Assembly: GCF_003334765.1 (NCBI RefSeq)
Contig: NZ_QOWT01000013.1
DNA length: 64,000 nt
Source of the DNA: Escherichia coli
Lineage (GTDB): Bacteria > Pseudomonadota > Gammaproteobacteria > Enterobacterales > Enterobacteriaceae
Direction: 5' to 3' (one strand)
Within the stretch, counting starts at the first letter, position 1; each line of letters begins with the position of its first letter. Below, in pieces: positions 32,270 through 34,329 of the stretch. The notes under the pieces are model-generated. The model ran no database searches and was not told the origin of the DNA. It saw nothing but the letters and a program-made list of their open reading frames with translations. The translations under genes and the position numbers were made by a program.

Positions 32270-33460
32270 ATGTTTGAGAACATTACCGCCGCTCCTGCCG
32301 ACCCGATTCTGGGCCTGGCCGATCTGTTTCGTGCCGATGAACGTCCCGGCAAAATTAACCTCGGGATTGGTGTCTATAAAGATGAGACGGGCAAAACCCC
32401 GGTACTGACCAGCGTGAAAAAGGCTGAACAGTATCTGCTCGAAAATGAAACCACCAAAAATTACCTCGGCATTGACGGCATCCCTGAATTTGGTCGCTGC
32501 ACTCAGGAACTGCTGTTTGGTAAAGGTAGCGCCCTGATCAATGACAAACGTGCTCGCACGGCACAGACTCCGGGGGGCACTGGCGCACTACGCGTGGCTG
32601 CCGATTTCCTGGCAAAAAATACCAGCGTTAAGCGTGTGTGGGTGAGCAACCCAAGCTGGCCGAACCATAAGAGCGTCTTTAACTCTGCAGGTCTGGAAGT
32701 TCGTGAATACGCTTATTATGATGCGGAAAATCACACTCTTGACTTCGATGCACTGATTAACAGCCTGAATGAAGCTCAGGCTGGCGACGTAGTGCTGTTC
32801 CATGGCTGCTGCCATAACCCAACCGGTATCGACCCTACGCTGGAACAATGGCAAACACTGGCACAACTCTCCGTTGAGAAAGGCTGGTTACCGCTGTTTG
32901 ACTTCGCTTACCAGGGTTTTGCCCGTGGTCTGGAAGAAGATGCTGAAGGACTGCGCGCTTTCGCGGCTATGCATAAAGAGCTGATTGTTGCCAGTTCCTA
33001 CTCTAAAAACTTTGGCCTGTACAACGAGCGTGTTGGCGCTTGTACTCTGGTTGCTGCCGACAGTGAAACCGTTGATCGCGCATTCAGCCAAATGAAAGCG
33101 GCGATTCGCGCTAACTACTCTAACCCACCAGCACACGGCGCTTCTGTTGTTGCCACCATCCTGAGCAACGATGCGTTACGTGCGATTTGGGAACAAGAGC
33201 TGACTGATATGCGCCAGCGTATTCAGCGTATGCGTCAGTTGTTCGTCAATACGCTGCAGGAAAAAGGCGCAAACCGCGACTTCAGCTTTATCATCAAACA
33301 GAACGGCATGTTCTCCTTCAGTGGCCTGACAAAAGAACAAGTGCTGCGTCTGCGCGAAGAGTTTGGCGTATATGCGGTTGCTTCTGGTCGCGTAAATGTG
33401 GCCGGGATGACACCAGATAACATGGCTCCGCTGTGCGAAGCGATTGTGGCAGTGCTGTAA
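32270..33460 (+). CDS. aspC: Aspartate aminotransferase AspC (396 aa)
   Basis: Translation [56 protein letters not shown]... contains the PLP-lysine region [14 protein letters not shown]; recognised as AspC. Confidence 0.95.
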
Positions 33461-33461
33461 G

Positions 33462-33496
33462 CATTAAAAACAATGAAGCCCGCTGAAAAGCGGGCT
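33462..33496 (-). terminator. Hairpin GCCCGC-TGAAAA-GCGGGC with its T-tract on the - strand (candidate terminator for ycbL transcripts)
   Basis: On the - strand the stem is followed by TTCATTGTTTTT; on the + strand no T-run follows, so it is unlikely to be the aspC terminator even though it lies 17 bp after the aspC stop. Confidence 0.45.
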
Positions 33497-33520
33497 GAGA
33501 CTGATGACAAACGCAACATT

Positions 33521-33620
33521 GCCTGATGCGCTACGCTTATCAGGCCTACGCGTCCCCTGCAATATTTTGAATTTGCACGATTTTGTAGGCCGGATAAGGC
33601 GCTCGTGCCGCATCCGGCAT
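33521..33620. repeat. Pair of REP (repetitive extragenic palindromic) elements in opposite orientation (BIME-like)
   Basis: GCCTGATGCGCTACGCTTATCAGGCCTACG (33521-33550) and the inverted copy TTGTAGGCCGGATAAGGCGCTCGTGCCGCATCCGGCAT (33582-33619) match the E. coli REP consensus (GCCGGATAAGGCG...CGCATCCGGC / GTAGGCC). Confidence 0.75.
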
Positions 33621-33648
33621 AAACAAAGCGCACTTTGCCAGAAATCCA

Positions 33649-33675
33649 GGCCCGCATTAAAAGCGGGCTTTTTTA
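33649..33675 (+). terminator. Hairpin GCCCGC-ATTAAAA-GCGGGC followed by TTTTTT on the + strand (probable functional aspC terminator)
   Basis: GC stem plus U-tract on the + strand only; it ends 7 bp before the ycbL stop codon, so the aspC 3' UTR would span the REP pair. Confidence 0.55.
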
Positions 33676-33681
33676 TGTGCC

Positions 33682-34329
33682 TTACCAGACGGGCATTTCG
33701 TCTTGCAGGAAGGGATTATGCAGGCGTTCATAACCAAGTGTGGATAATGGTCCGTGACCCGGAATAAATATCACGTCATCCCCCAGTGGCAGCAATTTAT
33801 CTTTGATTGAAGAAATCAGTTGATTATGATCGCCACGCGGGAAGTCACTGCGCCCTACTCCGCCTTTGAAAATAACATCGCCAGAAATCAGCAGCTTTGC
33901 CCGATCATCAAAAAACACGACATGACCCGGCGTATGCCCAGGGCAATGTAACACCTGTAAAGTCACATTCCCTATGCTGATGGTATCGCCTTCGTTCAGC
34001 CAACGATCTGGCGTCAGCGGCTGGCACTCTTCCAGACCAAACATACGACTTTGCGCAGGCAAGCCTTGCAGCCAGAACTCATCTTCTTTTTCCGGGCCGA
34101 AAACCGGCACGCCGTAATGTTGCGCCAGTTCCGCCGCTGCGCCAACGTGGTCCAGATGACCATGCGTCAGCAGGATCTGCATCAGTGTCAGGCCGCTGTC
34201 ATCAACTTCCTGTTTGATTTTTTCCGCATCGCCGCCAGGATCGACCAGTGCGGCCAGACGGGTTTGTTCACACCAGATTAATGAACAGTTCTGGGAGAAT
34301 GCGGTGACCGGAATAATACGATAGTTCAT
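33682..34329 (-). CDS. gloC: Hydroxyacylglutathione hydrolase-like metallo-beta-lactamase fold protein GloC (YcbL, 215 aa)
   Basis: Metal-binding motif THGHLDHVG; translation [42 protein letters not shown]... recognised as YcbL. Confidence 0.85.

What the first reader, a model, noticed from the sequence alone, without database searches (positions are those of the whole stretch)
33461..33681. Mirror-image terminator hairpins flanking a REP pair give convergent genes overlapping 3' UTRs
Two nearly identical hairpins (GCCCGC-TGAAAA-GCGGGC at 33478-33495 and GCCCGC-ATTAAAA-GCGGGC at 33650-33668) bracket two oppositely oriented REP elements. Each hairpin has its T-tract on the side that would terminate the gene transcribed from the far side. 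Both the aspC and ycbL mRNAs are therefore predicted to run through the REP pair and end next to the other gene's stop codon, giving about 190 nt of fully complementary 3' UTR and potential for mutual antisense control or REP-mediated mRNA stabilisation.
Basis: seen in the sequence. Interest (0 to 1): 0.35.

Follow-up and report, generated by a model that had tools for sequence, protein, structure and literature searches.

The report
Terminator hairpin duplicated by BIME insertion
The two look-alike hairpins between aspC and gloC (ycbL) are two copies of one ancestral two-way terminator, duplicated when a 153-bp mobile repeat (BIME-1) inserted there, and published RNA-end maps show both genes still stop at the first copy, so the messages overlap by about 29 bases, not 190.

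Summary

The hairpins are not a designed pair. About 70 other Enterobacterales species, and many E. coli genomes, have a 42-70 bp aspC-gloC spacer with one A-tract/hairpin/T-tract terminator. The K-12-type allele is found intact in 2811 of 5426 complete E. coli genomes. It carries a 173-bp insertion: a 153-bp BIME-1 (Y REP, IHF-like linker, Z1 REP) plus a second hairpin copy, which is a whole-hairpin target-site duplication.

The BIME-1 ends (CAGAyTGmTGACAAA) match YPAL/RU-2 MITEs and full-length IS1182-family insertion sequences. Both of these are also flanked by 19-27 bp duplicated terminator hairpins.

Published Term-seq and SEnd-seq data place the aspC 3' end at window 33500/33501, at its proximal hairpin. 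The ycbK-ycbL(gloC) 3' end is at 33473, at the same hairpin. gloC therefore has a 209-nt REP-containing 3' UTR as predicted, aspC has about 40 nt, and the overlap is 29 nt.

The transcript ends are already published. The origin of the duplication, and the link between BIME-1 and IS1182, appear not to have been described.

The parts
32270..33460 (+). aspC coding sequence (stop codon TAA at 33458-33460)
   Evidence: ORF list. Matches K-12 b0928, 1 mismatch in 3000 nt against NC_000913.3.
33466..33476 (-). A-rich tract (AAAAACAATGA) kept by hairpin 1. Read on the - strand it is the tail UCAUUGUUUUU of the gloC-direction terminator.
   Evidence: Terminator scan on the - strand. The same tract precedes the single hairpin in empty-site alleles.
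33477..33496 (.). Hairpin 1: the left copy of the duplicated ancestral bidirectional terminator, and the termination site actually used by both genes.
   Evidence: Sequence. Folds at -16.5 (+) and -14.6 (-) kcal/mol. SEnd-seq overlap region 984478-984506 = window 33473-33501, detected in log and stationary phase, genes ycbK:ycbL:aspC. Term-seq aspC 3' end 984479 = window 33500.
33497..33669 (.). 173-bp segment present only in the 'occupied' allele: the BIME-1 plus the second hairpin copy. It is bounded by the 11-bp direct repeat AAAAGCGGGCT (33486-33496 and 33659-33669).
   Evidence: Direct repeat D1, spacing 173. Intact in 2811 of 5426 E. coli genomes and missing in L001 and L003. Missing in about 70 outgroup species.
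33497..33514 (+). Left terminal inverted repeat of the element (GAGACTGATGACAAACGC). From memory, probably one of the outer BIME motifs named A and B by Gilson et al. 1991 (paper not held).
   Evidence: Shared by paralogous BIME-1 copies, by YPAL/RU-2 and by the ends of IS1182-family ISs.
33521..33549 (+). Y-type REP (GCCTGATGCGCTACGCTTATCAGGCCTAC)
   Evidence: Exact match to the Y consensus. Inverted repeats I2 and I3 with the Z1 REP.
33550..33584 (.). L linker of BIME-1, carrying an IHF-like site ATTCAAAATATTG (- strand, 33572-33560; 12 of 13 matches to WATCAANNNNTTR).
   Evidence: Rfam ES036/CssrF model hit at 33542-33584 (-), 53 bits against a gathering score of 37.6. BIME-1 definition in PMC3333891.
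33585..33618 (-). Z1-type REP (GTAG-tagged, inverted relative to Y)
   Evidence: Z1 on the - strand starting at 33618. inverted repeats I1-I3.
33631..33649 (+). Right terminal inverted repeat of the element (CACTTTGCCAGAAATCCAG; family consensus CACTTTGTCAGCAATCTGA). From memory, probably the other outer BIME motif.
   Evidence: Alignment with paralogues. Comparison of ends.
33648..33674 (+). Hairpin 2 (33650-33668) with its T6 tract (33669-33674): the right copy of the duplicated terminator. It is a canonical intrinsic-terminator shape for the aspC direction but has no mapped 3' end, so I take it to be a back-up terminator. It is transcribed as part of the gloC 3' UTR.
   Evidence: No curated Term-seq 3' end at 9843xx.
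33473..33681 (-). gloC (ycbK-ycbL operon) 3' UTR, 209 nt: hairpin 2, BIME-1 and hairpin 1
   Evidence: SEnd-seq + strand end at 984506 = window 33473. Length. The whole-spacer fold is -94 kcal/mol, z = -4.9.
33461..33501 (+). aspC 3' UTR, about 40 nt, ending 5-6 nt after hairpin 1
33682..34329 (-). gloC (ycbL) coding sequence

Best explanation
Origin. Enterobacteria ancestrally separate aspC and gloC by a single bidirectional intrinsic terminator: A-tract, GC hairpin, T-tract. In one E. coli lineage, which includes K-12, a 153-bp non-autonomous element inserted at the 3' foot of that hairpin. The element is a BIME-1: a Y REP, an IHF-site linker and a Z1 REP, framed by terminal inverted repeats CAGAyTGmTGACAAA. 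The insertion duplicated the whole stem-loop as a 19-20 bp target-site duplication. This left hairpin 1 with the old A-tract and hairpin 2 with the old T-tract. The 'mirror image' is a footprint of that event.

How the duplication arose (inferred). The staggered joining was done by an IS1182-family transposase acting in trans on a cruciform or stem-loop target.

Function (taken from published maps). Hairpin 1 still serves as the overlapping bidirectional termination site for both genes. aspC RNA ends 5-6 nt after it although the U-tract has been displaced. gloC RNA crosses hairpin 2 and the BIME and ends 4-5 nt after hairpin 1.

Hairpin 2 (inferred). Together with Rho, it catches aspC read-through.
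For: Single hairpin is ancestral. Most of the 80 species loci have a 42-70 bp spacer with one A-tract/hairpin/T-tract. These include Citrobacter and another Escherichia with the same GCCCGC stem. E. coli empty-site alleles read ...AAAAACAATGAA GCCCGC TGAAAA GCGGGC TTTTTTATG.

One haplotype in E. coli. The sampled occupied alleles are at least 99.7% identical to the window. The sampled empty alleles are 93.5-97.4% identical in the flanks.

Boundaries of the element. Paralogous BIME-1 copies begin and end exactly at 33497 and about 33649. The remaining 20 bp of the insert are therefore the second hairpin copy.

The same outcome elsewhere. Elements with the same ends are flanked by duplicates of the local, species-specific terminator hairpin:
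- in the same aspC-gloC spacer of Pseudocitrobacter faecalis (its sister genome has the empty site), Dryocola and Yersinia similis (a YPAL element);
- in the Cedecea ompF terminator;
- at six further metagenomic sites;
- at an Escherichia fbp terminator, with a perfect 23-bp duplication and an E. coli empty site.

Specificity. A strict scan of 397 kb found 4 identical-stem hairpin pairs, and 3 of them flank this element.

Autonomous relatives. Full-length IS1182-family ISs (NF033551 at 478 bits; Pfam) carry the same ends. On K. pneumoniae and Providencia plasmids they sit between perfect 19-bp and 27-bp hairpin duplications.

Literature. YPAL makes 3-26 bp target-site duplications at or next to dyad symmetries (PMC2229807). 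The IS1182-family member IS1272 targets stem-loops and terminators, and a published model predicts whole-stem-loop duplication when attack is at the 5' feet of the stem-loops (PMC5678879 and PMC4923244).

RNA ends. Term-seq places the aspC end at 984479(-). SEnd-seq places the overlap at 984478-984506.
Against: The two copies are not identical. The loops are TGAAAA and ATTAAAA, a 1-nt indel plus substitutions. Either the duplication was imprecise or the copies have diverged since.

Other E. coli BIME-1 copies show no hairpin duplication: cueO-gcd, inserted 2 nt after a hairpin, and entD-fepA. One copy lacks the terminal repeats altogether (yaaX-yaaA).

No IS1182-family relative of the plasmid ISs was found in the 5426 complete E. 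coli genomes at megablast sensitivity, apart from one partial plasmid hit. The transposase link therefore rests on shared ends and shared insertion behaviour only.

The aspC 3' end lies only 5-6 nt after a hairpin that lacks a U-tract. It could be a trimmed end rather than a termination point. The Rho-dependent signals on both strands show that some polymerases pass the whole spacer.
Confidence: 0.8

Rival explanations
1. Both mRNAs mainly terminate at their distal hairpins, which gives about 190 nt of fully complementary 3' UTR that mediates mutual antisense or RNase III control.
For: The T-tract geometry fits. gloC does end at its distal hairpin. Read-through of aspC-direction RNA into gloC is reported: the Rho region at 984273(-) has coverage of 102 upstream and 21 downstream without BCM, and 114 and 105 with BCM. 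p19-captured dsRNAs map inside gloC.
Against: Two independent 3'-end data sets put the aspC end at window 33500/33501. No curated 3' end lies at hairpin 2. The mapped overlap is 29 nt. No p19 dsRNA was listed within the spacer in the text that is held, and that file was cut when stored.
Confidence: 0.12
2. Processing model. aspC transcription mostly passes hairpin 1, because its U-tract is gone, and stops at hairpin 2 or at Rho sites. The 33500 end is then made by endonuclease cleavage and 3'-5' trimming back to hairpin 1. Nascent transcripts would overlap extensively even though stable ones do not. This model is compatible with the duplication origin.
For: The tail after hairpin 1 is UGAGA, with one U in the 8-nt flank (table). 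The 3' overhang is only 5-6 nt. With BCM, coverage downstream of hairpin 2 rises to about that upstream. BIMEs and REPs are reported as Rho-dependent attenuators (Harris 2026 abstract; Espeli 2001, cited).
Against: Trimming would have to pass hairpin 2 and two REP hairpins, and these are known exonuclease blocks. No intermediates ending at those structures are listed. According to the authors of the SEnd-seq study, bidirectional terminators of this class depend neither on a canonical U-tract nor on Rho and work through polymerase collision. The BCM read counts are low, about 100.
Confidence: 0.3
3. Deletion origin. The two-hairpin, BIME-containing spacer is ancestral, and the single-hairpin alleles arose by slippage or recombination between the 11-bp direct repeats.
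For: Recombination between the two AAAAGCGGGCT repeats would give exactly the observed single hairpin with the TGAAAA loop and the T-tract.
Against: About 70 outgroup species have the single hairpin. Empty-site E. coli alleles are the more divergent ones and each has its own loop variant. No sampled empty allele has flanks of the occupied haplotype (best 97.4%).
Confidence: 0.03
4. RAYT/REPIN origin. The BIME-1 was inserted by the REP-associated tyrosine transposase, and the second hairpin arose by an unrelated local duplication or was imported from the donor locus.
For: The element contains a GTAG-tagged REP doublet, which is the accepted RAYT substrate (PMC3333891).
Against: Y1 (IS200/IS605-type) transposition makes no target duplication (established knowledge). 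The duplicated hairpins are always the local, species-specific terminator, so they are not imported. Duplication recurs wherever the CAGAyTGmTGACAAA ends are present, whatever the interior (REP doublets of different families, YPAL, non-REP interiors), and also around full-length IS1182 ISs.
Confidence: 0.07

Closest known systems
Overlapping bidirectional terminators between convergent genes (SEnd-seq, Ju et al. 2019; table reproduced in the Harris et al. 2026 supplement)
   Same: Hairpin 1 is entry 69 of that list: a 29-nt overlap, a hairpin of -14.6 kcal/mol, detected in log and stationary phase, genes ycbK:ycbL:aspC.
   Different: As far as I could read, the published list treats it as one hairpin and does not note three things. 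It is one of two copies. The aspC-side U-tract was displaced 173 bp away by an insertion. Many E. coli genomes carry the undisrupted terminator.
BIME-1 / RIP / RIB elements of E. coli (Y REP - L linker with IHF site - Z1 REP; about 140 bp; present or absent among isolates)
   Same: The composition, the order, the size (153 bp with its ends) and the presence/absence polymorphism all fit.
   Different: Here the outer motifs are read as transposon-type terminal inverted repeats, and the insertion is shown to have duplicated its target hairpin. [quoted passage not shown]
YPAL / RU-2 miniature insertion sequences of Yersinia (De Gregorio et al. 2006; Delihas 2007, 2008)
   Same: The termini are the same: ttcagactgctgacaaac ... 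cactttgtcaataacctca. Insertion is at or next to dyad symmetries with 3-26 bp target-site duplications. A YPAL sits in the same aspC-gloC spacer of Y. similis between duplicated hairpins.
   Different: The interior is unrelated: YPAL has a 130-nt palindrome, BIME-1 has two REPs and an IHF linker. I found no paper linking YPAL to BIME-1 or to IS1182 in the searchable library. De Gregorio 2006 itself could not be read.
IS1182-family insertion sequences that target stem-loops (IS1272/TnSha1 in staphylococci; Furi 2016, Wan 2017)
   Same: The target is chosen by structure (terminator hairpins) with no primary-sequence consensus. The published model includes a pathway that duplicates the whole stem-loop. 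Enterobacterial IS1182-family ISs with the BIME-1/YPAL ends show exactly that, with perfect 19-bp and 27-bp duplications.
   Different: IS1272 deletes or replaces the hairpin and makes no duplication. The element in the window has no transposase gene, and no partner IS was detected in E. coli genomes.
REP elements as 3' UTR stabilisers and partial Rho-dependent terminators (Harris et al. 2026 preprint; Espeli 2001)
   Same: The BIME lies in the gloC 3' UTR between convergent genes. Rho-dependent signals flank the spacer.
   Different: No measurement exists for this locus. aspC and gloC are not discussed in that paper's main text.

Membership tests
Overlapping bidirectional terminator (SEnd-seq class) | Lies in the gap between convergent genes | tested here: met
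   aspC (+) and gloC (-) converge on a 221-bp spacer.
Overlapping bidirectional terminator (SEnd-seq class) | The 3' ends of the two strands map on either side of one hairpin, giving a short complementary overlap | tested here: met
   Published coordinates are 984478-984506, which is window 33473-33501 around hairpin 1. Term-seq gives 984479(-). This rests on published data, not on a new experiment.
Overlapping bidirectional terminator (SEnd-seq class) | Independence from Rho | tested here: inconclusive
   BCM-sensitive regions are reported at 984273(-) and 984537(+), just outside the spacer. The effect of Rho on the ends at hairpin 1 itself is not reported.
Canonical intrinsic (Rho-independent) terminator | GC-rich hairpin immediately followed by a U-tract on the transcribed strand | tested here: met
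   Met for hairpin 2 on the + strand (T6) and loosely for hairpin 1 on the - strand (UCAUUGUUUU). See the next row for the other two senses.
Canonical intrinsic (Rho-independent) terminator | The same feature for hairpin 1 in the aspC direction, where the aspC 3' end actually maps | tested here: not met
   The tail is UGAGACUG, with one U in 8 nt. The scan does not call it. Hairpin 2 on the - strand (tail CUGGAUUU) is not called either.
BIME-1 (RIP/RIB) | One Y and one Z1 REP in inverted orientation, separated by the long L linker, as a single copy | tested here: met
   Y at 33521-33549 is an exact consensus match. Z1 is at 33585-33618 on the - strand. The L motif TGCAATATTTTGAATTTGCA is at 33558.
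BIME-1 (RIP/RIB) | IHF binding in the L linker | not testable with these tools
   There is only a 12-of-13 match to WATCAANNNNTTR at 33572-33560.
MITE derived from an IS1182-family IS (YPAL/RU-2-like) | Terminal inverted repeats matching the ends of an autonomous IS | tested here: met
   GAGACTGATGACAAAC / CACTTTGCCAGAAATCCAG compare with IS ends CAGACTGCTGACAAAG / TTTGTCATTAATCTGA (L209), and with L138, L210 and L211.
MITE derived from an IS1182-family IS (YPAL/RU-2-like) | Small, with no transposase gene | tested here: met
   The element is 153 bp. ORFs crossing it are short, overlapping and run across the REPs, so I judge them spurious.
MITE derived from an IS1182-family IS (YPAL/RU-2-like) | Target-site duplication, with occupied and empty sites among relatives | tested here: met
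   A 19/20-bp hairpin is duplicated, with an imperfect loop. Empty sites are found in E. coli and the outgroups. At other sites the duplications are 19-27 bp.
MITE derived from an IS1182-family IS (YPAL/RU-2-like) | Mobilisation in trans by the cognate transposase | not testable with these tools
No partner IS was found in E. coli genomes at megablast level.
REPIN mobilised by a RAYT | GTAG/CTAC-tagged REP doublet | tested here: met
   GGCCTAC is at 33543-33549 and GTAGGCC at 33585-33591.
REPIN mobilised by a RAYT | Insertion without target duplication (Y1 transposase chemistry) | tested here: not met
   A whole-hairpin duplication flanks the element.
Excludon / long antisense 3' UTR overlap | Long complementary transcripts from both genes, with reciprocal effects on expression | tested here: not met
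   The mapped overlap is 29 nt. Only minor read-through is indicated. Reciprocal effects were not tested.

The most novel reading that the evidence does not exclude
E. coli BIME-1 elements that carry the outer motifs, together with Yersinia YPAL/RU-2 and several unnamed enterobacterial repeats, would be one superfamily of MITEs. They would be mobilised not by the REP-associated RAYT but by IS1182-family DDE transposases. These transposases recognise stem-loop or cruciform targets, attack at the feet of intrinsic-terminator hairpins and duplicate the whole hairpin (19-27 bp). Each insertion would then split a bidirectional terminator into two half-terminators and load a REP pair into one gene's 3' UTR. 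This would supply the missing in vivo dissemination mechanism for a major class of E. coli repeats.
Probability: 0.5. Interest if true: 0.62.

Novelty: new member of a known kind. Interest (0 to 1): 0.42.

Why it matters
1. T-tract geometry alone mispredicts real 3' ends. aspC stops at a hairpin whose U-tract was moved 173 bp away.

2. E. coli offers a natural allelic pair for studying a convergent gene pair. The intact occupied allele is in about 52% of complete genomes. The single, undisrupted bidirectional terminator accounts for roughly 30% of the sampled records. The pair can be used to test how an insertion in a terminator, a duplicated hairpin and a REP-loaded 3' UTR affect termination, polymerase collision and mRNA stability.

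3. How BIMEs spread has been unresolved for decades. Shared ends and a shared insertion footprint with IS1182-family ISs give a concrete, testable candidate mechanism.

4. Duplicated terminator hairpins are a simple sequence signature for finding recent insertions of this element family in any enterobacterial genome.

Tried and rejected
Deletion origin of the single-hairpin allele. I rejected it on the outgroups.

Import of hairpin 2 from a donor locus. I rejected it because the duplicated hairpins are always the local, species-specific terminator.

Rfam hits. Trp_leader and naRNA4 are below their gathering scores and I treat them as chance or REP-derived. ES036/CssrF is above threshold, but it is simply the BIME-1 L linker.

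ORFs crossing the spacer (140, 87 and 49 aa). They are overlapping, run across the REPs and are not conserved, so I judged them spurious.

Sampling K-12 in 50-kb pieces to census BIME-1 copies. I gave this up after one piece, which held one BIME-1 lacking the outer motifs. A metagenome pattern scan was more productive.

A second autonomous-element candidate (L095, ends 3.5 kb apart). It looks like a chance match inside coding sequence and I did not pursue it.

Search for the partner IS in E. coli genomes. There was no match apart from one partial plasmid hit. Only megablast was used, so divergent relatives would be missed.

Papers I wanted but that are not held: De Gregorio 2006 (YPAL), Bachellier 1997 (BIME polymorphism) and Gilson 1991 (BIME motifs). 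What I say about the first rests on Delihas's summary and on memory.

The global folds pair hairpin 1 arms with hairpin 2 arms. I treat this as an equilibrium artefact of two identical palindromes and not as evidence for a long-range structure.
Full report
1. What is in the sequence.

The window is E. coli K-12-like, with 1 mismatch in 3000 nt against NC_000913.3. aspC (+, 32270-33460) and gloC/ycbL (-, 33682-34329) converge on a 221-bp spacer. Window and K-12 coordinates convert as K-12 = 1017979 - window.

Hairpin 1 (GCCCGC-TGAAAA-GCGGGC, 33478-33495) and hairpin 2 (GCCCGC-ATTAAAA-GCGGGC, 33650-33668) are there as described. The pattern GCCCGC-N3-9-GCGGGC occurs nowhere else in the 64 kb, where 0.06 matches are expected by chance.

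The consensus terminator scan calls hairpin 2 only on the + strand (tail TTTTATG) and hairpin 1 only on the - strand (tail TCATTGTTTT).

Between the hairpins lie these parts:
- a Y REP at 33521-33549;
- a linker whose motif TGCAATATTTTGAATTTGCA includes an IHF-like site (12 of 13 matches);
- a Z1 REP at 33585-33618, on the - strand.

This is a complete BIME-1. An 11-bp direct repeat, AAAAGCGGGCT, spaced 173 bp apart, overlaps both hairpins.

2. The two hairpins are a duplication made by an insertion.

Only 2811 of 5426 complete E. coli genomes carry the full arrangement in one piece. Other sampled genomes have a locus about 170 bp shorter. In these the spacer reads TAA GCGTTAAAAACAATGAA GCCCGC TGAAAA GCGGGC TTTTTTATG, a single A-tract/hairpin/T-tract terminator.

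I fetched the aspC region from 80 other Enterobacterales species. Nearly all have a 42-70 bp aspC-gloC spacer holding one such hairpin. This includes Citrobacter species and another Escherichia with the same GCCCGC stem. The single bidirectional terminator is therefore ancestral.

Within E. coli, the sampled occupied alleles are at least 99.7% identical to the window. The sampled empty alleles differ by 2.6-6.5% in their flanks and have their own loop variants. This pattern fits one insertion haplotype better than repeated excision.

Paralogous BIME-1 copies (cueO-gcd, entD-fepA) share sequence with the window exactly from 33497 (GA[G/A]ACTGATGACAAACGC...) to about 33649 (...CACTTTGTCAGCAATCTGA). 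The mobile unit is therefore 153 bp. The remaining 20 bp of the 173-bp insert are the second hairpin copy.

3. The same footprint recurs.

Elements with the same ends are flanked by two copies of the local, species-specific terminator hairpin at several other places.
- In the same aspC-gloC spacer: Pseudocitrobacter faecalis (a BIME-1 in the opposite orientation, hairpin GGCCGCTTTCGCGGCC, with a sister genome that has the empty site), Dryocola boscaweniae, and Yersinia similis.
- In the ompF terminator of Cedecea.

A strict scan for identical-stem hairpin pairs 60-450 bp apart in 397 kb gave four hits. Three of them flank this element.

A metagenome scan for AGACTGATGACAAAC gave 28 element copies at about 17 distinct sites. 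Six of those sites show the duplicated hairpin. One site is a tandem array of three elements alternating with hairpin copies.

One of the six is a BIME-1 in the fbp terminator of an Escherichia relative. It has a perfect 23-bp duplication, and E. coli provides the empty site with a single hairpin.

Across all cases the direct repeats are 19-27 bp, which is the whole stem-loop.

Duplication is not universal. The cueO-gcd copy sits 2 nt after a hairpin with no clear duplication. entD-fepA shows none. The yaaX-yaaA BIME-1 lacks the outer motifs.

4. What the ends are.

The Yersinia element is YPAL/RU-2. The published 168-nt sequence begins ttcagactgctgacaaac and ends cactttgtcaataacctca. YPAL is reported to make 3-26 bp target duplications at or next to dyad symmetries.

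The interiors of the elements differ widely: REP doublets of several families, YPAL, and non-REP sequences. The ends CAGAyTGmTGACAAA are constant.

A 1.5-kb metagenomic element with the same ends encodes an IS1182-family transposase. It scores 478 bits on NF033551 against a cutoff of 270, and has the Pfam domains DUF772 and DDE_Tnp_1_6.

Its enterobacterial plasmid relatives are 60-63% identical at the protein level. They carry ends CAGACTGCTGACAAAG ... TTTGTCATTAATCTGA and sit between duplicated terminator hairpins:
- 19 bp, perfect, in K. pneumoniae;
- 27 bp, perfect, in Providencia;
- an inverted-loop copy in Salmonella.

Published work on the IS1182-family member IS1272 shows structure-directed insertion into terminator stem-loops. 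It also proposes that attack at the 5' feet of the stem-loops would duplicate the whole stem-loop.

From this I infer that the aspC-gloC BIME-1 was inserted by a transposase of this kind. This step is inferred and not shown. No such IS was found in E. coli genomes at megablast sensitivity. I found no paper in the searchable library that connects BIME-1 or YPAL with IS1182.

5. What the RNAs do (published data).

- Term-seq (Adams 2021) lists a single curated 3' end in the spacer, 984479(-), classed 'primary aspC', in two condition sheets. This is window 33500, 5 nt after hairpin 1. Nothing is listed at hairpin 2.
- The SEnd-seq table of overlapping bidirectional terminators (Ju 2019, reproduced by Harris 2026) has entry 69: 984478-984506, AGUCUCAGCCCGCUUUUCAGCGGGCUUCAU, detected in log and stationary phase, genes ycbK:ycbL:aspC. 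This is window 33473-33501, which is hairpin 1.

aspC therefore ends at its proximal hairpin, with a 3' UTR of about 40 nt, even though the tail there (UGAGA) has no U-tract. gloC crosses hairpin 2 and the BIME and ends at hairpin 1, with a 3' UTR of 209 nt. The complementary overlap is 29 nt.

The authors of the SEnd-seq study describe this class of terminator as neither canonical-intrinsic nor Rho-dependent, and as driven by polymerase collision at a hairpin.

Read-through does exist. BCM-sensitive regions are reported at 984273(-), 25 nt into gloC antisense (coverage 102 upstream / 21 downstream without BCM, 114 / 105 with BCM), and at 984537(+), 18 nt into aspC antisense (173 / 17 and 226 / 69). 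Small RNase III-type dsRNAs map inside gloC.

It remains open whether the 33500 end is a true release point or a trimmed end.

6. Verdict.

The 'mirror image' is the footprint of a whole-hairpin target-site duplication by a BIME-1 with IS1182/YPAL-type ends. Hairpin 1 remains the working bidirectional terminator. Hairpin 2 is a displaced half-terminator. It is probably a back-up for aspC read-through, and that role is inferred.

The transcript ends, BIME-1, its presence/absence polymorphism, YPAL duplications and stem-loop targeting by IS1182 are each already known. Two things appear new: that they come together at this locus, and that BIME-1 outer motifs are IS1182-type terminal repeats.

Noticed in passing
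L002:1-520 (E. coli 2015C-3905); corresponds to window ~33543-33546: In some E. coli genomes (rows H16 and H17) an IS621 (IS110-family) element is inserted inside the Y REP of this same BIME. The junction is immediately 5' of CTACGCG, so the site is GGC|CTAC. From memory, REPs are the known target of IS621.
   Followed up: partly
window 33542-33584 (- strand): The Rfam family ES036 (CssrF sRNA) matches at 53 bits, above its gathering score of 37.6. The match is simply the L linker of BIME-1, so this 'sRNA family' looks like a repeat-derived model.
   Followed up: partly
L103:449-771: A metagenomic contig carries three tandem copies of a 128-nt element with the same ends. The copies alternate with copies of one terminator-like hairpin (CCCCGCCTTATGCGGGG), which looks like repeated insertion into the duplicated target.
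   Followed up: no
L064 (aspC-gloC spacer), L210:250-1900, L212 vs L183: In several cases the two hairpin copies, or the occupied and empty alleles, have loops that are reverse complements of each other: ATAA/TTAT, TCT/AGA and TTGC/GCAA. In L210 at least 27 nt of the flanks are also inverted. This suggests loop flipping or inversion between palindromic copies.
   Followed up: partly
L005/L088 (cueO-gcd); K-12 138648-138678: A second BIME-1 with the same ends is also polymorphic (2737 of 5426 genomes). It sits 2 nt from another SEnd-seq-mapped bidirectional terminator hairpin (entry 5, gcd:cueO) without a clear hairpin duplication.
   Followed up: partly
window ~33824-33869 and 33803-33830 (+): p19-captured RNase III-type small dsRNAs map inside the 3' third of gloC. 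They lie next to a promoter-like site on the antisense (+) strand. The antisense RNA could come from aspC read-through or from this site.
   Followed up: no
L019, L028, L031, L032, L033, L039, L045 (aspC-gloC spacers): Seven other species carry one or more REPs between the aspC stop codon and the terminator hairpin without duplicating it. One locus (L031) has a 474-bp REP array. This spacer is evidently a recurrent landing site for repeats.
   Followed up: no
L138:150-1760: The Rhizobium-like IS1182-family IS lies between two different terminator-like hairpins. The left one has an A-tract and the right one a T-tract. They are not a duplicated pair.
   Followed up: no
window ~32138; L036:1141-1401: The ompF terminator upstream of aspC is the strongest Term-seq 3' end in this neighbourhood (985841(-), score 334046). 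Its orthologue in Cedecea is where a MITE with the same ends inserted, with a 20-bp hairpin duplication.
   Followed up: partly
L087:5531-5682 (K-12 yaaX-yaaA): A BIME-1 between another convergent pair lacks the CAGAyTGmTGACAAA ends and has an unrelated hairpin on one side only. Not all BIME-1 copies belong to the class with terminal repeats.
   Followed up: no
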